From contig JBAYHW010000002.1 in NCBI GenBank assembly GCA_041665925.1, forward strand, positions 26,838-90,837: 64,000 nt of DNA, read 5' to 3'. The position numbers were made by a program, and so were the translations under genes. Positions 1,807 through 11,475 of this stretch are shown piece by piece. How positions within the stretch are numbered: the first letter of the stretch is position 1; every line of letters begins with the position of its first letter. The notes beneath the pieces are model-generated. The model was given only the letters and a program-made list of their open reading frames with translations. It searched no databases and was not told the DNA's origin. The DNA is from Minisyncoccota bacterium. GTDB taxonomy: Bacteria; Patescibacteriota; Minisyncoccia; Phycocordibacterales; UBA9973.

Positions 1807-2763
1807 ATGTCAAAAAAAGTAATTTTGTCAGGGATTCAGCCTTCTGGTAGGCCCCATATTGGGAACTATTTCGGAATGATGAAGCAACTCCTAGCCGAGC
1901 AGGAAGATTATGAAGTTTATGTGCTCATAGTGGACTATCATGCAATGAAGTCGGTACGTAGCGCAAAGGAGATGAAAGAAAACATTACTAATGTTGTGCT
2001 AGATTATTTAGCTCTTGGGCTTAATCCAGAGAAGGTTACATTTTTTAAGCAGAGTGATGTATCTGAACATACAGAGCTTTGTTGGATTTTCGATACCATT
2101 ACGACAATGCCATATCTGATGCGAGCGCACGCGTTTAAAGATGCCGAAGCCAAGAATAAAGAAATTGATGTCGGGACATTTAATTATCCGATGCTTATGG
2201 CTGCTGACATTTTATTATATAGTCCAGACATTATTCCAGTCGGCGCTGATCAAAAACAACACATTGAGATAGCTCGAGATACAGCAGAGAAATTTAATCG
2301 CACATTCGGAGAGACATTTAAACTGCCGGAAGCTATGATTATGAAAGATGTTGCCGTGGTGCCGGGCACAGATGGACGCAAGATGAGCAAGAGTTACAAC
2401 AACACCATCCCACTTTTTGCCGAGTATGAAGAAATTAAAAAGTGCGTGATGAGTATTGTCACGGACTCTGATGGAAGTTTTCCAAAAAACGTTTTTGCTA
2501 TACATATGCTTCTTCCTTTTTATTCAAATAATGAGTTGAGTAAAATTTATGAAGAACACCCTCGAGAGTATAAATTTTTAAAAGAGTTACTCATAGAAGA
2601 TTTAGAGAAATTTATTGCTCCGCTTCGTGAAAATAGAAAAGAATTTGAAAAAGATATCCCCAAAGCGCTTGCCATACTTAAAGCAGGAGGAGAAAAGGCT
2701 AAAAAGGTAGCAGAAGCGAAAATGGACGAAATTCGAGAGAAAATCGGGGTAAAGGTTTACTAA
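1807..2763 (+). CDS. trpS: Tryptophanyl-tRNA synthetase
   Basis: 318 aa. N-terminal SGIQPSGRPHIGNY is the class I HIGH-type motif. KMSKS motif is present (GRKMSKSYNN). Confidence 0.92.
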   Translation: MSKKVILSGIQPSGRPHIGNYFGMMKQLLAEQEDYEVYVLIVDYHAMKSVRSAKEMKENITNVVLDYLALGLNPEKVTFFKQSDVSEHTELCWIFDTITTMPYLMRAHAFKDAEAKNKEIDVGTFNYPMLMAADILLYSPDIIPVGADQKQHIEIARDTAEKFNRTFGETFKLPEAMIMKDVAVVPGTDGRKMSKSYNNTIPLFAEYEEIKKCVMSIVTDSDGSFPKNVFAIHMLLPFYSNNELSKIYEEHPREYKFLKELLIEDLEKFIAPLRENRKEFEKDIPKALAILKAGGEKAKKVAEAKMDEIREKIGVKVY

Positions 2764-2770
2764 GGTTTCT

Positions 2771-3067
2771 ATGGAAAAGAAAAATCCTAAAATACTAGAA
2801 TACAAAAAAGAACTTCTGGAAGTTTTTTCAAGTATTAAGGGCGATAAAAAGCTAATGGCAGAATTTTTAATAGATATTTTGACACCCGCAGAGTTCGATG
2901 ACCTGGCCCTCAGGTGGCAGTTAGTAAAAAGATTGTATAAAGGAGATACCCATAGAGCTGTAGCAGGGGAGTTGGGTTTGGGTTTAGGGAAAGTCATGAG
3001 AGGATCTAGAGAACTTCGTAATAAAAAAGGGGGGTTTAATCTAATTCTTAAAAAACTAAGTAAGTAA
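2771..3067 (+). CDS. YerC/YecD-family (TrpR-like) helix-turn-helix protein
   Basis: 98 aa. DILTPAEFDDLALRWQLVKRL...GDTHRAVAGELGLGLGKVMRGSRELRN...GGFNLILKKL matches the conserved TrpR/YerC-YecD pattern (LLTP.E...L..R, TG.S..TI.R, GG[YF].L.L). It starts 8 nt after trpS and is probably co-transcribed. Confidence 0.7.
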   Translation: MEKKNPKILEYKKELLEVFSSIKGDKKLMAEFLIDILTPAEFDDLALRWQLVKRLYKGDTHRAVAGELGLGLGKVMRGSRELRNKKGGFNLILKKLSK

Positions 3068-3099
3068 ACACGGTACAGAGATTTAAAAGTTATCCCCAG

Positions 3100-3144
3100 A
3101 TGCAATTTGCATTATTTTTTTGTCCTGCTACTATGTACTAGTAC
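3100..3144. promoter_or_regulatory. Operator-like palindromes: ATGCAA-T-TTGCAT (3100-3112) and GTACTAGTAC (3135-3144), with flanking GGTACAGA direct repeats
   Basis: Perfect 6+1+6 and 10-bp palindromes read directly from the sequence. GTACTAGTAC contains the ACTAGT half-site of the classical E. coli TrpR operator (GTACTAGTTAACTAGTAC). They lie immediately downstream of the trpS / TrpR-like pair. Confidence 0.35.
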
Positions 3145-3309
3145 ATGGGTACAGACTAAAAAGATAGATTAGGTACACATGTGACGACAATTATGAAAGA
3201 CAATAATAAAACAAATAAATTAACTAAATCATGGTGGGGTGGAGAGCTTATAGCTTTTGCGCTGTTCCGTTGATTTCTTTTCTCCTAATTTTCAAACAAG
3301 AAATTTACC

Positions 3310-3338
3310 AAATGGCGCACAAGCGCCATTTGTTCTTT
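3310..3338 (+). terminator. Putative intrinsic terminator: 9-bp perfect stem AAATGGCGC/GCGCCATTT, loop ACAA, then TTGTTCTTT
   Basis: Inverted repeat and downstream T-rich tract seen in sequence. It lies ~240 nt downstream of the TrpR-like gene stop. Confidence 0.35.
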
Positions 3339-3374
3339 ATGCCACCTCTAATAATAACTGAAAGGACCAGTGCC

Positions 3375-3548
3375 ATGGATGACAAAAGATCGGAAAATGT
3401 ATACACAGAACAGATGAAAGATGCACAAGAACTCATTTCCAAAGCCAGTGAAGCTCTGGGTGAGTTCAAATTTCGTACCGCATCCACTCTACTCAAACAA
3501 GCGACCGAACAGGTCGATGCACTGTGGGTAGACAAAACTTACTGGTAG
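3375..3548 (+). CDS. Hypothetical small protein (57 aa)
   Basis: Internal ATG of the 3231-3548 ORF, with AAAGGA upstream. The upstream part of the longer ORF looks non-protein-like. No recognisable family. Confidence 0.3.
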   Translation: MDDKRSENVYTEQMKDAQELISKASEALGEFKFRTASTLLKQATEQVDALWVDKTYW

Positions 3549-3579
3549 TTATTTTAGAAATAGAAGGGAGGTGATCCAG

Positions 3580-3609
3580 ATGTCTCTTTGGGATGACTGG
3601 TGGCAGTAG
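3580..3609 (+). CDS. Mini-ORF MSLWDDWWQ (9 codons, 3 Trp): candidate leader peptide
   Basis: Strong SD GGGAGGTGA 5 nt upstream of the ATG. Three Trp codons in nine. Followed 40 nt downstream by an intrinsic terminator. Confidence 0.3.
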   Translation: MSLWDDWWQ

Positions 3610-3647
3610 GAGCCTGATGGTAGCGGAAGTGGCTCCACCGCATCGCT

Positions 3648-3681
3648 GGTCCCGACGTAAAAATCGGGGCCATTTTTATTT
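3648..3681 (+). terminator. Intrinsic terminator: stem GGTCCCGA/TCGGGGCC (8 bp, one G-U), loop CGTAAAAA, then ATTTTTATTT
   Basis: Hairpin plus U-tract seen in sequence, directly after the Trp-rich mini-ORF. Confidence 0.5.
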
Positions 3682-3734
3682 CAGAGTAGTAGTATGATAG
3701 TATTGGGGCATTAATCAAGTTTTCCACAGGTCTA

Positions 3735-3762
3735 TTGCATTTGGTTTTTGGTATGTTATAAT
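3735..3762 (+). promoter_or_regulatory. Sigma-70-like promoter: TTGCAT (-35), 16 nt spacer, TATAAT (-10)
   Basis: Near-consensus hexamers with near-optimal spacing, upstream of the small Cys/His ORF and the GC-rich island. Confidence 0.45.
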
Positions 3763-3994
3763 ACACATGTAATGAAAATTTCACAGCGTAACAACTTTTT
3801 CTTTTTTAACTTTAGCCCTAACCTTAGAGGTCAGATATTTGCGCTGTAAAAAAGAACTTAAACAAAAACTTACAACTCAAACACCTGCCCTCTAAGGGGT
3901 GGGTGTTTTCGTTTCTGCGTGTGGCAGGAGCGAAAGGGTAAAGGGGCTACCTATCATAAAGTCCTTAATGAGTTGTTCTTTGGGAGAAATAGCC

Positions 3995-4168
3995 ATGTTT
4001 GATATCTCCACCCAAGTTGAGTGCCGCGAATGCGGCGCGAAGTTCGATCCGTTTTTCGGGCATAACTGCCCGAAGCAGAACAGCGTTGCCGTGGCGCCGA
4101 CAGCGTCGCGACGGGAACGAATCAGCTCGGATTTCCCCGACACAGGGACGTCCAACTGGTCGAAGTAA
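3995..4168 (+). CDS. Small Cys/His-containing protein (57 aa), possible zinc-ribbon
   Basis: SD GGGAGA 7 nt upstream of the ATG. MFDISTQVECRECGAKFDPFFGHNCPKQ... has CxxC...H..C. GC-rich. Flanked by its own promoter and terminator. Confidence 0.4.
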   Translation: MFDISTQVECRECGAKFDPFFGHNCPKQNSVAVAPTASRRERISSDFPDTGTSNWSK

Positions 4169-4194
4169 TTATTCGACCAGATCACAAGGAAGGA

Positions 4195-4236
4195 GGGGGC
4201 GAAGTCTTAACCGACAAGCCCCCACCCCTTTTTCTT
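4195..4236 (+). terminator. Intrinsic terminator: stem GGGGGC/GCCCCC, then ACCCC and a T-run
   Basis: Hairpin and T-tract seen in sequence, directly downstream of the small ORF's stop codon. Confidence 0.45.
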
Positions 4237-4353
4237 AAAAAATATATGAAAAATAAAATTTTAAAATATAATAATTTTTTCTTCAGCGTCAGGATTTACC
4301 CCGAGAGCTGATTTTTGCGTTTAAAAATATCCTAACAAAATATTTTAAAAACA

Positions 4354-4380
4354 AACACCAGCTCTCGTAGAGCTGGTGTT
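4354..4380. promoter_or_regulatory. Perfect 11-12 bp hairpin AACACCAGCTCT / AGAGCTGGTGTT
   Basis: Perfect inverted repeat with a 3-5 nt loop and no following U-tract, ~90 nt upstream of the fusion gene start. It could be a regulatory or processing stem-loop. Confidence 0.3.
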
Positions 4381-4467
4381 CCCGTTTAGCGGGGACATTG
4401 ATCTTTGACAAGTGAATAGTTGTTCTTTTTACGTTGGGGTCAAATCCAAAGAAAGGAGGTGAAGAAA

Positions 4468-6039
4468 ATGAATCCTACAGAAGTTAAAATTGTCATGGAG
4501 ACAATCAAAAAGTCTCTAGGCAACGGCGAGGATGGCTATAACCTGGCGGCACTTCTAAGAAGTGCAATCCAGAAGAAGGTCGCAGAGCTTGAAAAAGAAC
4601 GAAAAGAGAGGGGGGAAGAGGAAATTCAAAGGAAACTCGCTCTCCCTATTCAGCGGGCGGACAAACTTCTTTCTTCTGTTCCACGCCTAGTACTGGAAGA
4701 GATAGACAGTTACACCCGAAGTCATAAATGGGGCGAGCTGTCAGTCTCAGCCCAGCAGAAGTTGCATGAACTGGGCGTTCTCGATCTGTGGGCGAAACGC
4801 CGGACTTACGGACCGGATGGTGGAGAGAAACCTTCAGTCAGCTGGTTTGAACCATTCGGGAAAGCTCTGAAAAATCTCATCTGTAACAAGGTAGATGAGT
4901 TGCGTCGAAGTGACGCAGAGGCCACAGAGGCAGCTCGACAAGCTAGGTTGCAGCCAGCCCAAGAGCTTTTGAATGAGCTTTTAGCAAAGTCCGTCAGGCT
5001 TTCGCTCGAAGATGCAAAAGCTTGTAAGGAGGCGCTGGAGAAGTGGATCGAGGACAATGCCTACCGGCCGTACAGTGGTGGCGGCGGGGGTGGGAGTGGT
5101 TGTGTGGTTTCTGATTCGCAAGAGCCGTTCTTGCGAGGGCGATGGGGCCCGCCTATGAAGTGGCCCCCAACAAATTTTTCGGAGAGACAAATGAATCCGA
5201 TCAAAATCGCAGTGGTGGGATTCGGGGATTTCGGTTCCCGATTCGTTAGGTGGCTCCGGAAAGCGAGAGTCGGTGTCGAAACCATCGCGGTGGTAGACCC
5301 GATTCCTGGGAAAATCTGGGGCCCCGCGGGCGTTCTCGTGAGCCCCAGCATCCACGCAATCTCGCAGCGGGTCCTTTCACAGGTGCAGGTCTTCGTCGAT
5401 TGCACTTCCAAAGGGCAAGGCAAGGAGAATCTTGGTCTGTACCAAGCGCTCGGCAGACCGGCCGTGTTTCAAAACGGCGAAGACCGAGCGCTGTGTCAGT
5501 TGTTCCGCGCGGGCTCGACATTTCTTGCGGGAGCGCCGTACCTCCGCATCCCGCAGTGCTCGGCGCTGGCGACAATGAGTGTGTTTGAAGCGCTTCATCC
5601 GCTTCTCGACATTCGTTCCGTCTACACGCTCCATGCCAAGATCAACAACAAAGACAAAATGCTCGGCCTGGGCGACAAGTCTGCGGCCGACATCACCACG
5701 CTCGCAGAGATTCCGGCGGTCGTTGACGTGTGGTACTTGCGAGAGAAGCCGAAGCAGGGCCGCACGCAGTACGTCTACCACGGCAATCTGCACTTTCAGT
5801 GTGGGGGTGCAATTCCGTCGGCGGATCGCATTCGGAAAGCGCTCATGGCGTCCCGTGTGCCACTGTGTACGCAGGAGCTCGACTCGCTGATTTCACCACG
5901 TCTCACGCAGACGCACGTGGTCGCGGAGAGCATTTCGGTTCAGGGAAACAGCGTTCGCATGAACGTGATTTCCTGGACACCGGAAGTGAACTTTCCACAA
6001 AACCTGGCCGCAATCAAATTGCTGGCCAAAGTTCTTTAA
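4468..6039 (+). CDS. Fusion protein: unknown coiled-coil N-domain + poly-Gly linker + archaeal type-II GAPDH-like NAD(P)-binding dehydrogenase domain
   Basis: Strong SD AAAGGAGGTG 8 nt upstream of ATG 4468 (the track ORF starts at 4420). C-terminal half has IAVVGFGDFGSR (Rossmann), VFVDCTSKGQGKENLGLYQALGRPAVFQNGED (archaeal GAPDH signature DCTP.G.G..N...Y...G..A.FQGGE) and a conserved Cys in RIPQCSAL at the position of catalytic SCNTT. N-terminal ~230 aa has no recognisable family. Linker is SGGGGGGSG. GC is ~58% against a ~35% background. Confidence 0.6.
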   Translation: MNPTEVKIVMETIKKSLGNGEDGYNLAALLRSAIQKKVAELEKERKERGEEEIQRKLALPIQRADKLLSSVPRLVLEEIDSYTRSHKWGELSVSAQQKLHELGVLDLWAKRRTYGPDGGEKPSVSWFEPFGKALKNLICNKVDELRRSDAEATEAARQARLQPAQELLNELLAKSVRLSLEDAKACKEALEKWIEDNAYRPYSGGGGGGSGCVVSDSQEPFLRGRWGPPMKWPPTNFSERQMNPIKIAVVGFGDFGSRFVRWLRKARVGVETIAVVDPIPGKIWGPAGVLVSPSIHAISQRVLSQVQVFVDCTSKGQGKENLGLYQALGRPAVFQNGEDRALCQLFRAGSTFLAGAPYLRIPQCSALATMSVFEALHPLLDIRSVYTLHAKINNKDKMLGLGDKSAADITTLAEIPAVVDVWYLREKPKQGRTQYVYHGNLHFQCGGAIPSADRIRKALMASRVPLCTQELDSLISPRLTQTHVVAESISVQGNSVRMNVISWTPEVNFPQNLAAIKLLAKVL

Positions 6040-6160
6040 CGCAAAGCTTGCCGGCGGAATTGGCAGGTAATTACAAAGAAAGGGGCAGTCTCAAATCAAA
6101 TCATCGAGACGTAAGACCCCTTTTTCTTTTTCATTATTTTTATGCTAAAATGCCATCACA

Positions 6161-7177
6161 ATGCCGAACGCAAGTCATATTAATTTAAACCCTTACCCAC
6201 TAATGCTTTATGGCAGTCCGAGTGGAGTCAAGCATAGTCTAGTCGTTAAGGTTGCGAAGTTGTTGAAAAAACCTCTTTCCCCCTCTACTTATAAAGAATT
6301 TAAAGACGGTTCATTTTTGGTTCATCACAATGATTCAGTTCGAGATCGTGACGTTTATTTAATTCTACAACCTCGCTTTGGTAACAGAGAAATTCTTTCC
6401 TATGATTTAGACGAATGCGAATCTATGGTTTTGGCGCTAAAGCAAGGAGAGCCAAGTCGTATTACAGTCGTTATCCCATGTCTGCCATATTCAAGGCAAG
6501 ACAGAGGGTCTAATCACCGAGAGCCTGTACTAGTGCAAAAAGTTCCTATGCGTCTTCAGATGGCTGGGGCACACCGTCTCGTAACACTCCGACTACACAA
6601 TCCAGCGAGCTATAATGCCCATCCTTCTACGATACCTATTGTCGATGTGAATGTAGACGACCTTCTGGTAAAACATATTCGTTCAAAAAAGTTTGATCTA
6701 AAAAAATTTAAAATAGTCGCCCCAGACTTAGGCGCTGCTCCTTCGTGCAGAAAGCTTGCTCGCGAGCTCGGTATCCCAGAAAATATAATTATCATAAATA
6801 AGGTGCGTGATCCGAAAAAAGCAAACCACAATGAAGTCATGGAAGTGATAGGAGATGCAAAAGGTTTTAACTGCATTATTCCTGACGACATGGCCGATAC
6901 GTGCGGTACGGCTATAAAATCACTTTATGCGCTAAAAGAAAATGGAGCCAAGGATGTATATTTTACAGCGACGCACGCTGTTCTGTCTGGGACAGCTGTA
7001 CAGGATTTAAATAAGGCTCCGTTTGCCGGTATTTGGTTTACAGATTCTTGCATAGAAGGGGAAAAAGGGAAAATAAAAAATCTTGAAATAATCTCTACTG
7101 CGAAACTAATCGCAAAGATCATTGATAATTTACATAATGGCAAGTCAGTCACCGAACTTTGGCATAATGGAAAATAA
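6161..7177 (+). CDS. prs: Ribose-phosphate pyrophosphokinase (PRPP synthetase)
   Basis: 338 aa. LPYSRQDR (ribose-5-P binding loop) and IPDDMADTCGT (PRPP-binding motif DDM.DTGGT) are present. Overall collinear with Prs. Confidence 0.8.
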   Translation: MPNASHINLNPYPLMLYGSPSGVKHSLVVKVAKLLKKPLSPSTYKEFKDGSFLVHHNDSVRDRDVYLILQPRFGNREILSYDLDECESMVLALKQGEPSRITVVIPCLPYSRQDRGSNHREPVLVQKVPMRLQMAGAHRLVTLRLHNPASYNAHPSTIPIVDVNVDDLLVKHIRSKKFDLKKFKIVAPDLGAAPSCRKLARELGIPENIIIINKVRDPKKANHNEVMEVIGDAKGFNCIIPDDMADTCGTAIKSLYALKENGAKDVYFTATHAVLSGTAVQDLNKAPFAGIWFTDSCIEGEKGKIKNLEIISTAKLIAKIIDNLHNGKSVTELWHNGK

Positions 7178-7272
7178 AATTTTTGTGTTAAAATATATTT
7201 TATACCTGTCCCGTTAGAAAATCAACGGACTTGTATAAAAAAGGAAGTTTATTATTTTAATTTTTTAATGGG

Positions 7273-8622
7273 ATGAAAAATCGTATTTATATTAAAGATT
7301 TGAAAGAAAACGTGGGGCAAGAAGTTCTTATTGCCGGCTGGGTGGATGTACGTCGTGATCAAGGCAAGATGGTATTTTTTGATATGCGGGATATGACAGG
7401 CAAGGTACAATGCGTGGTTTTGCCGAATCATATGGAGGCGATAGAGCAAGCAAAAGAGGTTAGACTAGAATGGGTTCTTAAAATGACTGGAATAGTAAAC
7501 AAACGTCCAGACAAAAATGTTAAGGCGGGAGTTTTGAATGGCGATATAGAAATCGAAGTTTTAGATATTGAAGTATTGTCTGAAGCGGCGCCTTTGCCTT
7601 TTGACATGTCGCTTGATGGATACAATTTAGATTTGACCACCGAGCTTGATAATCGAGCGTTGGTTCTCCGTCAACCGAAAGTGCAAGCGGTTTTTAAAGT
7701 GCAAGAGACCGTAATCGACTCCTTCCGTGAATTTATGAAAAAAAATATGTTTTTTGAATTTCAAGCGCCGAGTATCGCCCCGGCTGTCGCCGAAGGTGGG
7801 AGTGAAGTTTTTAAAGTTGATTATTTTGACAAGAAAGCATATTTAACTCAATCACCCCAGCTTTATAAGCAAATTGTAATGTCTGCTTTTGAGCGAGTTT
7901 TTTCAGTCAACAAAGTTTTCCGAGCCGAGCCTTCTTCTACGACTAGACATTTGACTGAAATTGTTTCCCTTGATGCCGAAATGGGTTTTATTGATTCTTG
8001 GGCAGATGTTCGTGATATGGCAGAAGAAACAGTAAGATACATACTAAAACAAGTTGAACAAAAAAATTCTGAACATTTGAAAATTTTAAATGCTGAGCTT
8101 CCAAAAATGATAGAAAAAACTCCCACCATGTCTCTGCGAGAAGTTCAGCAGAAAATTTTTGAAAAATCTGGACGAGATGTACGCGGAGAAAAAGATACCA
8201 ATCCTCAAGATGAACGTGAAATTTGCGAAATAATAAAAGAAGAAACCGGCTCTGATTTTGTATTTATATATGGATATCCGACCAGGAAAAAGCCTTTTTA
8301 TGTTTATCCAAATCCAGAGGAGCCTGAATACAATGAAGGTATGGATTTAATCTGTAGAGGCGTAGAATGGCTTTCAGGTGGAAGAAGAATTAATGATTAC
8401 AATCAACTTATGAAGCATGTGGAAATCTGGAAAATGGATCCAAGTAAAGTAAAAATGTTTTTGGAAGCTTTCAAATATGGAGTACCACCTGAAGGTGGAT
8501 TTGCTTTTGGCGCTGAACGTATCACCATGCAGCTTTTGGGTCTAAAAAATGTCCGTGAAGCCTCAATGTTTCCCCGAGACATGAACAGGATAGACGATAA
8601 ACTTAACAGCGACGGATATTAA
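7273..8622 (+). CDS. aspS: Aspartyl-tRNA synthetase, archaeal/eukaryotic-type class IIb (possibly non-discriminating). AsnRS not fully excluded.
   Basis: 449 aa. N-terminal OB-fold anticodon-binding domain. QSPQLYKQ, FRAEPSSTTRHLTEIVSLD and GAERITMQLLG are class II motifs 1-3 of the Asp/Asn/Lys subclass. Confidence 0.7.
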   Translation: MKNRIYIKDLKENVGQEVLIAGWVDVRRDQGKMVFFDMRDMTGKVQCVVLPNHMEAIEQAKEVRLEWVLKMTGIVNKRPDKNVKAGVLNGDIEIEVLDIEVLSEAAPLPFDMSLDGYNLDLTTELDNRALVLRQPKVQAVFKVQETVIDSFREFMKKNMFFEFQAPSIAPAVAEGGSEVFKVDYFDKKAYLTQSPQLYKQIVMSAFERVFSVNKVFRAEPSSTTRHLTEIVSLDAEMGFIDSWADVRDMAEETVRYILKQVEQKNSEHLKILNAELPKMIEKTPTMSLREVQQKIFEKSGRDVRGEKDTNPQDEREICEIIKEETGSDFVFIYGYPTRKKPFYVYPNPEEPEYNEGMDLICRGVEWLSGGRRINDYNQLMKHVEIWKMDPSKVKMFLEAFKYGVPPEGGFAFGAERITMQLLGLKNVREASMFPRDMNRIDDKLNSDGY

Positions 8623-10984: not shown

Positions 10985-11377
10985 TTACGAGCTCAAACGC
11001 AACCCTTTCCGTTGTGGAGAAGAGTTGCTGCGATGTAAACGAGAAAGAATCAAGCGGTAGCCACCGAGGGAGCCGTAAAGCCATTTGGCGATGCGGGCGA
11101 TGGTGGTGGAAGAAAGCCCCGTCGATTCGCTGATAGCTTCGTATTGGACGTCGCGAGAGAGAAGCCGTGCGGCTTCGAGGCGCTTGCTGAATTCGGTAAT
11201 TTCCGCGGGGGTCAGGAGGTCGCGGAGAAACCGCTTAGCTTCATCGGTCGTTTTCAGCTCTAAAATACCAGCCACCAGCTGCCTGGTTTCCTTGGTATTC
11301 CAATCCGCATCCGAGCCGATCTCGGTCACCAGCCGGACTGTTTTTACCTTCGTATTTTTATTCATTCCCGTACTCAT
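10985..11377 (-). CDS. YerC/YecD-family (TrpR-like) DNA-binding protein, second paralog
   Basis: 130 aa. LRDLLTPAEITEFSKRLEAARLLSRDVQYEAISESTGLSSTTIARIAKWLYGSLGGYRLILSRL matches the YerC/TrpR family pattern very closely. GC ~52%. Confidence 0.75.
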   Translation of the reverse strand: MSTGMNKNTKVKTVRLVTEIGSDADWNTKETRQLVAGILELKTTDEAKRFLRDLLTPAEITEFSKRLEAARLLSRDVQYEAISESTGLSSTTIARIAKWLYGSLGGYRLILSRLHRSNSSPQRKGLRLSS

Positions 11378-11380
11378 CCG

Positions 11381-11423
11381 TCTACTTTAGCAAACTAAAG
11401 TACTTTAGTCAAGTAAAGTAGAT
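11381..11423. promoter_or_regulatory. Operator array: four alternating half-sites TACTTTAG / CTAAAGTA, including the perfect 14-bp palindrome CTAAAGTACTTTAG
   Basis: Read directly: TCTACTTTAG-caaa-CTAAAGTACTTTAG-tcaag-TAAAGTAGA. It lies immediately upstream of the TrpR-like gene start (11377, minus strand) and in the divergent promoter region of the GNAT gene. GTAC core as in TrpR operators. Confidence 0.5.
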
Positions 11424-11475
11424 AAAAAAGGTGTGGATAACTTTTTTCTTATAATCTATTTGCTATAATGCCTGG

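What the first reader, a model, noticed from the sequence alone, without database searches (positions are those of the whole stretch)
3566..3681. Trp-codon-rich mini-ORF (MSLWDDWWQ) followed by an intrinsic terminator: candidate tryptophan attenuator
- **Mini-ORF:** A 9-codon ORF with a near-ideal SD (GGGAGGTGA, 5 nt spacing) encodes three Trp in nine residues, including a tandem WW.
- **Terminator:** 40 nt downstream there is a clean intrinsic terminator, GGTCCCGA/TCGGGGCC plus ATTTTTATTT.
- **Alternative pairings:** Competing stems are possible (GGAGCC...GGCTCC at 3609-3636; CCACCGC/GCGG).
- **Context:** This geometry is what a ribosome-mediated Trp attenuator looks like. It sits ~500 nt downstream of trpS and a TrpR-like gene.
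- **Open question:** The regulated target is unclear. A separate promoter-like element lies further downstream.
Basis: partly seen in the sequence, partly recalled or inferred. Interest (0 to 1): 0.65.

Follow-up and report, generated by a model that had tools for sequence, protein, structure and literature searches.

The report
Conserved tryptophan-rich micro-ORF plus terminator
A nine-codon, tryptophan-rich gene with its own terminator is real and conserved in a group of tiny-genome (CPR/Paceibacteria) bacteria, but it is the cargo of a tryptophan-controlled switch just upstream, not the switch itself.

Summary
SD GGGAGGTGA (3566-3574), ORF 3580-3609 (MSLWDDWWQ*), hairpin GGAGCC/GGCTCC (3609-3636) and an intrinsic terminator (3647-3681) are all present.

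It is not chance. In 1.08 Mb of related Paceibacteria DNA, only 3 of 216 SD-preceded mini-ORFs have three or more Trp, and all three sit at this syntenic spot. With further relatives, the LW(x)DDWW peptide is found in six genomes, with synonymous Leu/Asp codon changes. A seventh genome carries MWWPWFWWI there.

The attenuator reading fails its own test. Ribosome-masking models leave the terminator at P = 0.90-1.00 in all six loci modelled, and stalling at Trp codons and sitting at the stop codon give the same result.

The real Trp attenuator lies upstream. It comprises a TrpR-operator palindrome (3133-3146), a WW leader ORF (3193-3273), a covarying antiterminator and a terminator (3309-3332). 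In most relatives its terminator flips from about 0.95 to 0.00 and back in the same model. In relatives it precedes trpE or trpDCFBA.

The micro-ORF is the last cistron of that Trp-controlled unit, and apparently the only one in relative L202. Its function is unresolved. I favour a peptide product.

Two Phe-leader attenuators follow (3772-3908, 4246-4381).

The parts
3107..3134 (+). Promoter-like element of the Trp-controlled unit: -35 TTGCAT (3107-3112), 16-nt spacer, -10 TACTAT (3129-3134). It is preceded by a DnaA-box-like GTTATCCCCA at 3089-3098.
   Evidence: Read from the sequence. The same layout is conserved after every trpR-like gene in relatives (alignment A1). The simple sigma-70 scan did not call it, so promoter function is inferred.
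3133..3146 (.). TrpR-operator-like palindrome ATGTACTAGTACAT, overlapping the -10 and the expected transcription start.
   Evidence: GTACTAGTAC or close variants occur at the same place in L003, L006, L007, L008, L011, L015, L016, L022, L193, L194, L195, L202, L203 and L206. The resemblance to the E. coli trp operator is from my own knowledge. Binding was not tested.
3193..3273 (+). Leader ORF 1 (MKDNNKTNKLTKSWWGGELIAFALFR*), with an invariant tandem Trp at 3232-3237. This is the sensor of the genuine Trp attenuator ('att1').
   Evidence: TGGTGG is invariant in 13 aligned loci (A4). ORFs with WW at this place appear. There is no SD before the window's ATG, so the start codon is uncertain. In L193 and others the ORF starts at the ATG inside the operator.
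3258..3319 (+). att1 antiterminator helix. 3258-3266 pairs with 3311-3319, and there are inner pairs around the leader's stop codon. It is mutually exclusive with terminator 1.
   Evidence: Constrained fold. 91.9% of cells are paired in 13 sequences, against 38-54% for slid controls, and 4 pairs change on both sides.
3309..3341 (+). att1 terminator: CAAATGGCGC/GCGCCATTTG (3309-3332) plus TTCTTTATG.
   Evidence: 89% paired, 7 of 10 pairs with compensatory changes, 0 of 500 shuffles as good. Masking model: P(term) falls from 0.92-0.99 to 0.00-0.18 in 7 of 10 loci (0.63-0.98 in the window, L193 and L013) and is 0.93-0.99 again with the ribosome at the stop codon.
3375..3548 (+). orf57a, a 57-aa orphan ORF between att1 and the micro-ORF. 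It is variable cargo, or may not be a gene at all.
   Evidence: Only itself is found in 5.8 billion proteins. It has no similarity to the ORFs at the same place in L013 or L194. It is absent in L193, L202, L203 and L007.
3566..3574 (+). Shine-Dalgarno GGGAGGTGA of the micro-ORF.
   Evidence: It is conserved as (A/G)GGAGGTGAT or GGGAGTGAT in L193, L194, L202, L203 and L013 (alignment A5).
3580..3609 (+). Micro-ORF MSLWDDWWQ* (the finding).
   Evidence: Homologues are L193 MSLWDDWWQKGA*, L013 MLWDDWWP*, L203/L204 MLWDDWWC*, L202 MLWANDDDWWR* and L194 MRGSLWDPGWQ*. L007 has the analogue MWWPWFWWI*. Leu is encoded by CTT, CTC or TTG and Asp by GAT or GAC.
3609..3641 (+). Two mutually exclusive small hairpins directly after the stop codon. 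H1 is GGAGCC (3609-3614)/GGCTCC (3631-3636). H2 is GCGG (3623-3626)/CCGC (3638-3641). The motif ACCGCATC follows.
   Evidence: H1 is kept in the window, L193, L194, L202 and L203, and its third pair varies A-U / G.U / G-C among the window, L193 and L194. ACCGCATC is shared by the window, L202 and L203, and ACCGC by L193 and L194. Neither hairpin overlaps the terminator by more than 2 nt.
3647..3681 (+). Intrinsic terminator 2: TGGTCCCGA / 8-nt loop / TCGGGGCCA plus TTTTTATTT. This is the 3' end of the Trp-controlled unit.
   Evidence: -14.9 kcal/mol. P(term) is 0.93 free, 0.91 stalled and 0.90 at the stop codon. Non-homologous but equivalent strong terminators (-16.5 to -27 kcal/mol) follow the micro-ORF in L013, L203, L202, L194 and L007.
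3735..3915 (+). It comprises -35 TTGCAT (3735-3740), TGT-TATAAT (3754-3762), the Phe leader ORF 3772-3849 (MKISQRNNFFFFNFSPNLRGQIFAL*) and a terminator at 3879-3908.
   Evidence: Nine copies occur in six genomes. The antiterminator segment (CTTAGAGGTCAG) is complementary to the terminator's 5' arm, with compensatory changes between copies.
4246..4395 (+). Second copy of the Phe leader attenuator (MKNKILKYNNFFFSVRIYPES*; terminator 4353-4381), upstream of orf523.

Best explanation
**What it is.** The micro-ORF is a real, translated, conserved small gene. It is not the leader of a ribosome-mediated attenuator.

**Where it sits.** It is the last cistron of a short transcription unit. In at least one relative (L202) it appears to be the only cistron. 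The unit runs in this order:
- It starts at a promoter overlapped by a TrpR-operator palindrome (3107-3146).
- It then passes a textbook WW leader-peptide attenuator (3193-3341).
- It may carry a variable orphan ORF (orf57a in the window).
- It reaches the micro-ORF (3580-3609).
- It ends at a constitutive intrinsic terminator (3647-3681).

**How Trp control works.** Trp control is exerted upstream. Low Trp releases TrpR. Ribosome stalling at the WW codons of leader 1 lets the antiterminator form, so RNA polymerase reaches the micro-ORF only when Trp-tRNA is scarce. These steps are supported by comparative and modelling evidence.

**What the micro-ORF does (inferred).** Ribosomes load at the strong SD and must read three UGG codons within the last six sense codons. 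The output is therefore gated a second time by Trp-tRNA. My preferred reading is that the LW(x)DDWW peptide itself is the functional output. It would be a Trp-regulated micropeptide acting in trans, comparable to the Sinorhizobium leader peptide peTrpL. Its target is unknown.
For: **Real and conserved**
- Homologous micro-ORFs with a conserved SD occur in L193, L013, L203/L204, L202 and L194. A Trp-rich analogue occurs in L007.
- Only 3 of 216 SD-preceded mini-ORFs in 1.08 Mb have three or more Trp, and all three are at this spot.

**Selection on the peptide**
- Leu is kept through CTT, CTC and TTG. Asp is kept through GAT and GAC. The indels are in frame.
- The flanking ORFs (orf57a, L013 ORF43, L194 ORF48 and ORF61) share no detectable similarity.

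**Under Trp control from upstream**
- The operator, WW leader and terminator are conserved in 13 loci.
- The terminator has 7 of 10 compensatory pairs, and 0 of 500 shuffles do as well.
- The antiterminator is 92% paired, against 38-54% in slid controls.
- The same module directly precedes a trpE-like gene in L003 (read from its N-terminal sequence) and trpD/C-trpF-trpB-trpA in L197.

**Terminator 2 is constitutive**
- P(term) is 0.90-1.00 in all ribosome states in six loci.
- In the same model att1 goes from about 0.95 to 0.00-0.18 and back to about 0.95 in 7 of 10 loci.
- The kinetic proxy shows no difference between stall and stop for the micro-ORF, but a clear one for att1 and the Phe leaders.

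**Terminal or sole cistron**
- In L202, L203 and L193 the micro-ORF's SD follows directly after terminator 1.
- In L202 the next gene after terminator 2 is aspS, preceded by its own apparent extended -10 motif (TGnTAAAAT). That motif is shared with the aspS upstream region of L203.

**Precedent**
- A Trp leader peptide acting in trans is described for peTrpL (PMC7298713, listed).
Against: - No experiment shows transcription, translation or a peptide.
- An unmodified 8-12-residue cytoplasmic peptide would normally be short-lived, and no partner or target is evident.
- The L007 peptide (MWWPWFWWI) shares only its Trp-richness. This fits a codon-level sensor better than a sequence-specific product.
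- L194 has lost one Trp and one Asp.
- In L007 the hairpin after the micro-ORF has a poor U-tract. Genes including trpB and trpA follow it with no visible promoter, so some read-through must occur there.
- The conserved H1/H2 hairpins and the ACCGCATC motif have no role in a pure peptide model.
- Leader 1 in the window has no SD, and carries a roughly 40-nt insertion compared with L193. The window's own att1 may therefore be weakened; its modelled switch is smaller (0.99 to 0.89, or 0.56 with a longer footprint).
- The folding models are equilibrium or truncated-equilibrium approximations, not co-transcriptional kinetics.
Confidence: 0.45

Rival explanations
1. **Cis-acting second gauge of Trp-tRNA.** This would be a tandem sensor like B. 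subtilis rtpLP, or the two leader ORFs of Salmonella mgtCBR. Ribosome occupancy or stalling on the micro-ORF would switch the RNA just after the stop codon between H1 (GGAGCC/GGCUCC) and H2 (GCGG/CCGC). That switch would change transcript stability, processing, pausing or low-level read-through. The peptide itself would have no role.
For: - Trp-richness is the only property shared with the L007 analogue.
- H1 starts at the stop codon and is kept in five loci, with an A-U / G.U / G-C series among three of them. ACCGCATC is shared by the window, L202 and L203, and ACCGC by L193 and L194.
- The arrangement 'transcriptional Trp sensor, then a roughly 10-codon ORF with three Trp' matches the B. subtilis at operon (Chen & Yanofsky 2004, cited in PMC4027176).
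- In L007, genes including trpBA follow with no visible promoter.
Against: - H1 and H2 do not touch the terminator, and no SD or ORF lies behind the stop codon, as rtpLP requires.
- The stalled and terminating ribosome positions are almost identical, and no consistent free-versus-occupied effect is seen across loci.
- Synonymous variation at Leu and Asp points to selection on the peptide rather than on RNA or codons alone.
- In L193 the stop codon has moved 3 codons downstream, into and past H1's 5' arm, without loss of the ORF.
Confidence: 0.25
2. **Classical ribosome-mediated Trp attenuator.** Stalling at the three UGG codons would favour an antiterminator that prevents the 3647-3672 hairpin. 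Transcription would then continue into downstream genes when Trp is scarce.
For: - A short ORF with a strong SD, three Trp in nine codons, a nearby hairpin and then a clean terminator.
- A Trp regulon context.
- The same lineage demonstrably uses this mechanism nearby, in att1 and the Phe leaders.
Against: - No segment competes with the terminator. P(term) is 0.90-1.00 in every ribosome state in six loci, whereas att1 drops to 0.00-0.18 in 7 of 10 loci.
- The 5' arm is not pre-emptively sequestered in a stall-specific way.
- The terminators are unusually strong (-15 to -27 kcal/mol, against -10 to -18 for att1).
- The Trp codons are only 2-3 codons from the stop.
- What follows is an independent promoter with a Phe leader in the window and L194, a promoter with a Leu-rich leader in L203, and aspS with its own apparent promoter motif in L202.
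- No trp or aro genes were found in the 64-kb window.
Confidence: 0.07
3. **Evolutionary leftover.** This would be the stub of a former leader or of a lost gene's 5' end, kept next to a terminator with no present function. The similarity among relatives would reflect recent common descent or transfer of a small cassette.
For: - The region between trpS and aspS is a hot spot of gain and loss. Every relative has a different content there.
- Only 7 of about 16 loci with att1 carry a micro-ORF.
- The metagenome pattern scan found no further members.
- The window's genome has lost the trp genes that att1 controls elsewhere.
Against: - The SD, start codon, reading frame and LW..DDWW are kept in six genomes whose TrpR proteins are only 72-90% identical. 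Everything around them has become unalignable.
- The changes are synonymous or in frame, and no copy carries a frameshift or an early stop.
Confidence: 0.13

Closest known systems
E. coli trp operon control: TrpR operator plus the trpL leader-peptide attenuator
   Same: - The locus has a TrpR-family gene and a GTACTAGTAC palindrome over the -10.
- It has a leader ORF with tandem Trp codons, and alternative 2:3 (antiterminator) and 3:4 (terminator) helices.
- The module precedes a trpE-like gene or trpDCFBA in relatives.
- All of this applies to the upstream element (3107-3341), which is the true counterpart.
   Different: - The finding itself (3566-3681) has the Trp-rich ORF and the terminator but no antiterminator and no cognate downstream genes.
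- The organism is a CPR bacterium.
- In the window the module controls no trp gene.
- Leader 1 lacks an SD.
B. subtilis rtpLP, the 10-codon leader with three Trp codons in the anti-TRAP (at) operon (Chen & Yanofsky, Mol Cell 2004, cited in PMC4027176)
   Same: - It is a very short ORF with three Trp codons.
- It is placed after a first, transcriptional sensor of Trp-tRNA, giving tandem sensing.
   Different: - rtpLP acts because its stop codon lies next to the SD of rtpA, so a terminating ribosome blocks initiation. Here a hairpin and a terminator follow, not an ORF.
- The first sensor there is a T-box, not a leader peptide.
Sinorhizobium meliloti peTrpL / rnTrpL, where the Trp leader peptide and attenuator RNA have functions in trans (PMC7298713)
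   Same: It is a Trp-rich peptide of about 10-14 residues, encoded in a Trp-controlled leader region. Its product, not only its translation, is used by the cell.
   Different: - peTrpL is the leader of a working attenuator. Here the micro-ORF is separate from the attenuator.
- The two peptides share no sequence similarity.
- A function in trans is only inferred here.
Salmonella mgtCBR tandem attenuators (mgtM and mgtP leader ORFs; PMC3641672)
   Same: Two short ORFs in series in one leader region, each read by ribosomes as a separate signal.
   Different: In mgtCBR both ORFs control alternative stem-loops that decide read-through. Here only the first ORF does.
E. coli TnaC, a Trp-sensing arrest peptide (PMC8429421)
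   Same: Both are short Trp- and Asp-containing regulatory peptides. One homologue (L013) ends in Pro-stop, as TnaC does.
   Different: - TnaC is 24 residues, with defined W12-D16-P24 spacing.
- It blocks Rho-dependent termination.
- It induces a catabolic operon when Trp is high.
- An 8-9-residue chain cannot fill the same tunnel sites.
Chlamydia trachomatis trpRBA operon, with a predicted leader peptide in the trpR-trpB spacer (Merino & Yanofsky 2005, discussed in PMC6504234)
   Same: The gene order trpR, then a spacer with a Trp-rich leader, then trpBA, resembles relative L007. Both organisms have reduced genomes and incomplete Trp pathways.
   Different: - The chlamydial attenuator is unproven.
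- There is no counterpart of the second micro-ORF.
- The window itself has no trpBA.

Membership tests
Ribosome-mediated (leader-peptide) transcription attenuator | A short translated ORF enriched in codons of the regulating amino acid | tested here: met
   Three UGG in nine codons behind GGGAGGTGA. Only 3 of 216 comparable ORFs are this Trp-rich.
Ribosome-mediated (leader-peptide) transcription attenuator | An intrinsic terminator downstream of the leader ORF | tested here: met
   3647-3681, 9-bp stem plus T-tract. Equivalent terminators are found in five relatives.
Ribosome-mediated (leader-peptide) transcription attenuator | An antiterminator helix that excludes the terminator and forms only when the ribosome stalls at the regulatory codons | tested here: not met
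   P(term) is 0.90-1.00 when free, stalled or at the stop codon in six loci. The att1 control goes from about 0.95 to 0.00-0.18 and back to about 0.95 in 7 of 10 loci. In the truncated-transcript test, stall and stop are equal for the micro-ORF, whereas stall is well above stop for att1 and the Phe leaders.
Ribosome-mediated (leader-peptide) transcription attenuator | Regulatory codons conserved in relatives | tested here: met
   Three Trp in the window, L193, L013, L203 and L202, two in L194 and five in L007.
Ribosome-mediated (leader-peptide) transcription attenuator | Genes of the cognate pathway follow in the same transcription unit | tested here: not met
   In the window, a promoter with a Phe leader follows, then orphan ORFs and prs. 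In L202 it is aspS, with its own apparent promoter motif. No trp or aro genes were found in the 64 kb. Only in L007 do trpBA lie further downstream.
rtpLP-type translational leader (B. subtilis at operon) | An ORF of about 10 codons with several Trp codons, downstream of a transcriptional Trp-tRNA sensor | tested here: met
   9 codons with 3 Trp, lying 239 nt after the att1 terminator.
rtpLP-type translational leader (B. subtilis at operon) | The leader's stop codon lies next to the SD of the regulated ORF, so that a terminating ribosome blocks its initiation | tested here: not met
   The stop codon is followed by H1, then the terminator. No SD or ORF lies within reach in the window, L202, L203 or L194. 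The overlapping +2-frame ORF 3593-3697 is not conserved, because L013 has GAC instead of GAT-G.
TnaC-type Trp-sensing arrest peptide | A peptide of about 24 residues with conserved W12, D16 and P24 and a stop codon at the arrest site | tested here: not met
   The peptides are 8-12 residues. The last residue varies (Q, P, C, R or QKGA).
TnaC-type Trp-sensing arrest peptide | Arrest induced by free L-Trp, blocking Rho-dependent termination | not testable with these tools
   This needs toeprinting or in vitro translation with and without L-Trp.
peTrpL-like leader peptide acting in trans | A Trp-rich peptide encoded in a Trp-controlled leader region | tested here: met
peTrpL-like leader peptide acting in trans | A demonstrated function of the free peptide on other targets | not testable with these tools
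   The only indirect support is selection at the amino-acid level and the micro-ORF's status as sole cistron in L202.
Microcin C-like mccA (tiny ORF plus terminator hairpin plus MccB) | A peptide ending in Asn, with a ThiF/MccB-type adenylyltransferase gene downstream | tested here: not met
   The peptides end in Q, P, C, R or A. orf523 gives only a sub-threshold ThiF hit (E = 0.079). Its relatives look like DapB/GFO-type Rossmann oxidoreductases. orf523 is absent from every other micro-ORF locus.
Classical Trp attenuator with TrpR operator (applies to the upstream element 3107-3341, not to the finding) | An operator palindrome over the promoter, a tandem-Trp leader ORF, conserved mutually exclusive antiterminator and terminator, and trp genes downstream in relatives | tested here: met
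   L003 has a trpE-like gene downstream and L197 has trpD/C-F-B-A. TrpR binding itself was not tested.

The most novel reading that the evidence does not exclude
The LW(x)DDWW micro-ORF is a new kind of Trp-status effector. It would be the dedicated, sometimes only, product of a unit gated twice by Trp (TrpR plus attenuator), in bacteria that largely cannot make Trp. Because it needs three Trp-tRNA in six codons, it would act in one of two ways. It could be a micropeptide made only within a narrow band of Trp supply, acting in trans for example on TrpR, TrpRS or an uptake system. Or it could be a deliberate ribosome-stalling 'alarm' mRNA that turns Trp shortage into a wider response.
Probability: 0.3. 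Interest if true: 0.75.

Novelty: new variant of a known kind. Interest (0 to 1): 0.55.

Why it matters
**New for CPR bacteria.** Candidate-phyla-radiation bacteria (here Paceibacteria/Nomurabacteria) appear to use E. coli-style amino-acid control. That includes a TrpR operator, a textbook Trp leader-peptide attenuator, and Phe-type (and one Leu-rich) leader attenuators built on a shared scaffold. These elements are shuffled among cargo genes in a variable region between trpS and aspS. My literature searches found no description of leader-peptide attenuation in this group. These elements give a way to read amino-acid dependencies and regulons in organisms that cannot be cultured.

**An unexplained piece.** The micro-ORF is a conserved, Trp-rich, 8-12-codon gene expressed only when Trp is short. 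It has no gene behind it. If its peptide or its stalled translation is a signal, that would add a new member to the very small set of functional leader-type micropeptides.

**A practical lesson.** 'Trp-rich mini-ORF plus terminator' is not enough to call an attenuator. The ribosome-masking test with in-locus positive controls separates the two cases.

Tried and rejected
- **Rfam.** No family matched at gathering scores over the whole window or at relaxed E-values over 3000-4600. Only chance microRNA/sRNA hits appeared.
- **Homologues of the neighbours, to obtain comparators.** orf523 and orf57a each found only themselves in the word-indexed search. orf523 had no viral relatives. The exhaustive HMMER search found 19 relatives of the C-terminal half of orf523 only.
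- **Identical copies.** L001 and L002 are 100% identical to the window and carry no information.
- **Metagenome pattern scan** for SD + ATG + W[D/E][D/E]WW. It returned 110 hits. The short ORFs among them lie in unrelated, mostly GC-rich contexts without terminators, so I treat them as chance.
- **Homology among the small ORFs between att1 and the micro-ORF.** None was found.
- **sRNA-seed idea.** No target complementary to the conserved CCACCGCATC motif was found in the window. Matches were at chance level.
- **Overlapping +2-frame ORF 3593-3697.** Its ATG is not conserved in L013.
- **H1/H2 as an H-type pseudoknot.** I rejected this by inspection. A single nucleotide would have to span a 6-bp stem.
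- **RiPP or microcin-C-like cassette.** Rejected (see the membership table).
- **'TSNWSK' at the end of orf57b** recalls the darobactin core. I treated it as coincidence, since nothing else supports it.
- **Long-range pairing of the ORF's 5' half with the terminator's 5' arm.** It is seen in the untranslated window RNA but is not conserved in relatives.
Full report
**1. What is in the sequence**

- SD GGGAGGTGA lies at 3566-3574, followed by a 5-nt spacer.
- The ORF is ATG(3580) TCT CTT TGG GAT GAC TGG TGG CAG TAG(3607-3609) = MSLWDDWWQ*.
- Hairpin GGAGCC (3609-3614)/GGCTCC (3631-3636) has a competing GCGG (3623-3626)/CCGC (3638-3641) pairing.
- The terminator is TGGTCCCGA / 8-nt loop / TCGGGGCCA (3647-3672) plus TTTTTATTT (-14.9 kcal/mol).

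Upstream genes are dnaB (minus strand), trpS (1807-2763) and a PF01371 Trp_repressor gene (2771-3067).

Rfam has nothing here. The overall fold energy of 3560-3690 is ordinary (z = -0.98).

**2. Source and neighbourhood**

- The window is identical to an ENA contig and a Logan contig.
- Relatives found through trpS are Candidatus Nomurabacteria/Paceibacteria MAGs, that is, CPR bacteria.
- In most of the 80 loci, trpS is followed directly by aspS. In the window's nearer relatives, variable material sits between them: trpR, prs, trp and aro genes, and orphans.
- In the window this stretch (3100-6100) rises to 60% G+C in a genome of about 38%.
- It carries three ORFs without relatives in the 80 loci: orf57a, orf57b and orf523.
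- Only the C-terminal half of orf523 has distant relatives. These are Rossmann-type oxidoreductases.

**3. The micro-ORF is conserved and not a chance ORF**

DNA search of the island against the relatives found a 52-nt match covering exactly the SD and mini-ORF in L013. More loci were fetched through TrpR homologues. The family is:

| Locus | Peptide |
|---|---|
| window | MSLWDDWWQ* |
| L193 | MSLWDDWWQKGA* |
| L013 | MLWDDWWP* |
| L203/L204 | MLWDDWWC* |
| L202 | MLWANDDDWWR* |
| L194 | MRGSLWDPGWQ* |
| L007 (same position, different peptide) | MWWPWFWWI* |

These come, with the alignment in A5.

- Leu is encoded by CTT, CTC or TTG and Asp by GAT or GAC. The indels are in frame.
- The ORFs that lie between this element and the upstream attenuator in the window, L013 and L194 share no detectable similarity.
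- In 1.08 Mb of these genomes there are 216 ATG ORFs of 5-12 codons behind a strong SD. Only three have three or more Trp, and they are the window, L013 and L007 copies.
- A metagenome pattern scan added no convincing members. The family appears to be rare and restricted to this clade.

**4. The real Trp attenuator is upstream**

A conserved module follows the trpR-like gene in most relatives that carry one. In L197 a Phe leader and an orphan ORF intervene. L195 and L196 have only the operator. L013 has the leader without a trpR gene. The module consists of:
- a DnaA-box-like GTTATCC(A/C)CA;
- a promoter-like TTGCAT-16-TACTAT;
- the palindrome ATGTACTAGTACAT over the -10 (window 3133-3146);
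- a small ORF with an invariant TGGTGG (window 3193-3273, WW at 3232-3237);
- three complementary segments and a terminator (window 3309-3332).

On 13 sequences (A4):
- The terminator is 89% paired, with compensatory changes in 7 of 10 pairs, and 0 of 500 shuffles do as well.
- The mutually exclusive antiterminator is 92% paired, against 38-54% for slid controls.

This module directly precedes a trpE-like gene in L003 (identified from its N-terminal sequence) and trpD/C-trpF-trpB-trpA in L197. I call it att1. By every test available here it is a classical TrpR-plus-attenuator control region.

**5. Does the finding's hairpin switch?**

I modelled three states: free RNA, a ribosome stalled with the last Trp codon in the A site, and a ribosome at the stop codon. 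The footprint extended 13 nt past the A site.

| Element | Free | Stalled at Trp | At stop |
|---|---|---|---|
| att1 terminator (7 of 10 loci) | 0.92-0.98 | 0.00-0.18 | 0.93-0.98 |
| att1 terminator (window, L193, L013) | 0.98-0.99 | 0.63-0.98 | 0.98-0.99 |
| micro-ORF terminator (all six loci) | 0.91-1.00 | 0.90-1.00 | 0.90-1.00 |

Equilibrium can miss kinetic switches. The Phe leaders show only a partial drop at equilibrium. I therefore also folded transcripts truncated before the terminator's 3' arm, and measured how much of the 5' arm was already paired:

| Element | Stalled | At stop |
|---|---|---|
| att1 | 0.68-0.93 | 0.01-0.58 |
| Phe leaders | 0.66-0.76 | 0.01-0.11 |
| micro-ORF | 0.42-0.82 | 0.24-0.82, with no consistent direction relative to stalled |

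- The reason is geometric. The Trp codons are only 2-3 codons from the stop.
- H1 and H2 compete with each other, not with the terminator.
- The terminators after the micro-ORF are also stronger (-15 to -27 kcal/mol) than those of att1 (-10 to -18).
- I conclude that 3647-3681 is a constitutive terminator.

**6. Place in the transcription unit**

- In L193, L202 and L203 the micro-ORF's SD follows directly after the U-tract of the att1 terminator.
- In the window, L013 and L194, non-homologous small ORFs are inserted between them.
- After terminator 2 come different things:
  - a promoter with a Phe leader, in the window and in L194, where that leader sits directly before aroA;
  - a promoter with a Leu-rich leader in L203;
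  - aspS in L202, with a TGnTAAAAT promoter motif of its own.
- The micro-ORF is therefore the conserved distal cistron of the TrpR/att1-controlled unit, and in L202 apparently its only cistron.
- The 64-kb window has no trp or aro biosynthesis genes.

**7. Interpretation**

Supported by the comparative evidence and modelling:
- The micro-ORF is a real conserved coding element.
- Trp control is exerted upstream.
- The terminator is constitutive.
- No classical attenuation occurs at this site.

Inferred: what the micro-ORF does.
- It is transcribed only when Trp-tRNA is scarce, yet it needs three Trp in six codons. Its translation is therefore gated a second time by Trp-tRNA.
- There is amino-acid-level conservation, and the micro-ORF can be the sole cistron. 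I therefore favour the peptide as the output (confidence about 0.45 for the whole statement). This would resemble peTrpL of Sinorhizobium (PMC7298713).
- The main rival (0.25) is a purely cis-acting gauge. It would use the conserved H1/H2 hairpins at the stop codon, in the spirit of B. subtilis rtpLP (Chen & Yanofsky 2004, cited in PMC4027176) or the Salmonella mgtCBR tandem leaders (PMC3641672).
- L007 argues for that rival. Its peptide shares only Trp-richness, and trpBA lie downstream of a hairpin with a poor U-tract.
- A leftover without function (0.13) is made unlikely by the pattern of substitutions.

**8. Novelty**

- Leader-peptide attenuation and TrpR operators are well known.
- My literature searches found no paper that combined leader-peptide or transcription attenuation with Patescibacteria, Parcubacteria or CPR terms. 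Those parts are therefore new members of a known kind.
- The micro-ORF is a Trp-rich mini-gene that is cargo rather than sensor of a Trp attenuator. It resembles rtpLP and peTrpL without meeting their defining features. I rate it a new variant of a known kind, with moderate interest (0.55).

**9. Limits**

- All functional statements rest on sequence comparison and thermodynamic models.
- The sample of homologues is small: six plus one analogue.
- The window's own att1 may be weakened. It has no SD before the leader ATG, a roughly 40-nt insertion compared with L193, and a smaller modelled switch.
- Promoters are inferred from conserved hexamers, not from the consensus scan.

Noticed in passing
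window 3089-3341 (and L003, L007, L011, L013, L015, L016, L193, L194, L197, L200, L202, L203, L206): A textbook Trp control region in a CPR bacterium. It has the TrpR-operator-like palindrome ATGTACTAGTACAT over the -10, a leader ORF with invariant tandem Trp codons, and a covarying antiterminator and terminator. In relatives it sits directly before a trpE-like gene (L003) or trpD/C-F-B-A (L197).
   Followed up: yes
window 3735-3915 and 4246-4395; L004 3135-3305 and 3800-3945; L003 11900-12055; L012 9735-9885; L015 7915-8070 and 8300-8445; L016 10560-10715; L194 6060-6245; L197 5330-5520: A repeated Phe-codon leader attenuator with its own TTGCAT/TATAAT promoter.
- Example peptides are MKISQRNNFFFFNFSPNLRGQIFAL* (window) and ...NNFFFFFFSPNLRGRIFAL* (L004).
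- A segment inside the ORF is complementary to the terminator's 5' arm, with compensatory changes between copies.
- It precedes aroA in L194 and prs in L012 and L015. In the window it precedes only the orphans orf57b and orf523.
   Followed up: partly
L203 3240-3425: This is the same RNA scaffold as the Phe leader (…GGCTGATATTTGCGTTGTAAAA…ACTTACAACCCAAACACC… plus a terminator). Here, though, the leader peptide is MSLLLSLLRPLEG*, with six Leu in 13 residues and no Phe run. This looks like a change of amino-acid specificity on one attenuator chassis.
   Followed up: no
window 3089-3098 (+), 3719-3728 (+), 11432-11441 (-); equivalent positions in relatives: A DnaA-box-like motif, GTT(A/T)TCC(A/C)CA, lies 6-18 nt upstream of the -35 hexamer of three promoters. 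These belong to the Trp unit, the Phe leader and the second TrpR-family gene. There are 3 matches in the window against 0.5 expected, and the motif is conserved after trpR in nearly all relatives. Its meaning is unknown.
   Followed up: partly
window 3100-6100: A G+C-rich island (up to 0.60 in a genome of about 0.38) holds three ORFs with no relatives in the 80 sister loci: orf57a (3375-3548), orf57b (3995-4168, Cys-containing) and orf523 (4468-6039). The N-terminal 240 residues of orf523 are orphan. Its C-terminal half has only 19 distant relatives, which have DapB/GFO-like Rossmann domains.
   Followed up: partly
window 2763-7273 compared with L003-L082: The adjacency of trpS and aspS is ancestral in Paceibacteria. 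In this clade the junction has become a hot spot where trpR, attenuators, trp and aro genes, prs and orphan ORFs are gained and lost. Every relative has a different content there.
   Followed up: partly
window 10985-11445 (- strand): A second Trp_repressor-family gene (about 130 aa) has a promoter region carrying TTGACT, the palindrome CTAAAGTACTTTAG and TAAAGT. It may be autoregulated.
   Followed up: no
L007 8980-14770; L194 4341-7544: Relatives keep pieces of aromatic amino-acid metabolism around trpR.
- L007 has a transaldolase-family gene, a probable DAHP synthase (read from its sequence, not tested) and trpB-trpA.
- L194 has a TAL_FSA-family gene and aroA.
- L197 has trpD/C-F-B-A.
- The pathways are patchy, which suggests salvage or partial synthesis in CPR bacteria.
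   Followed up: no
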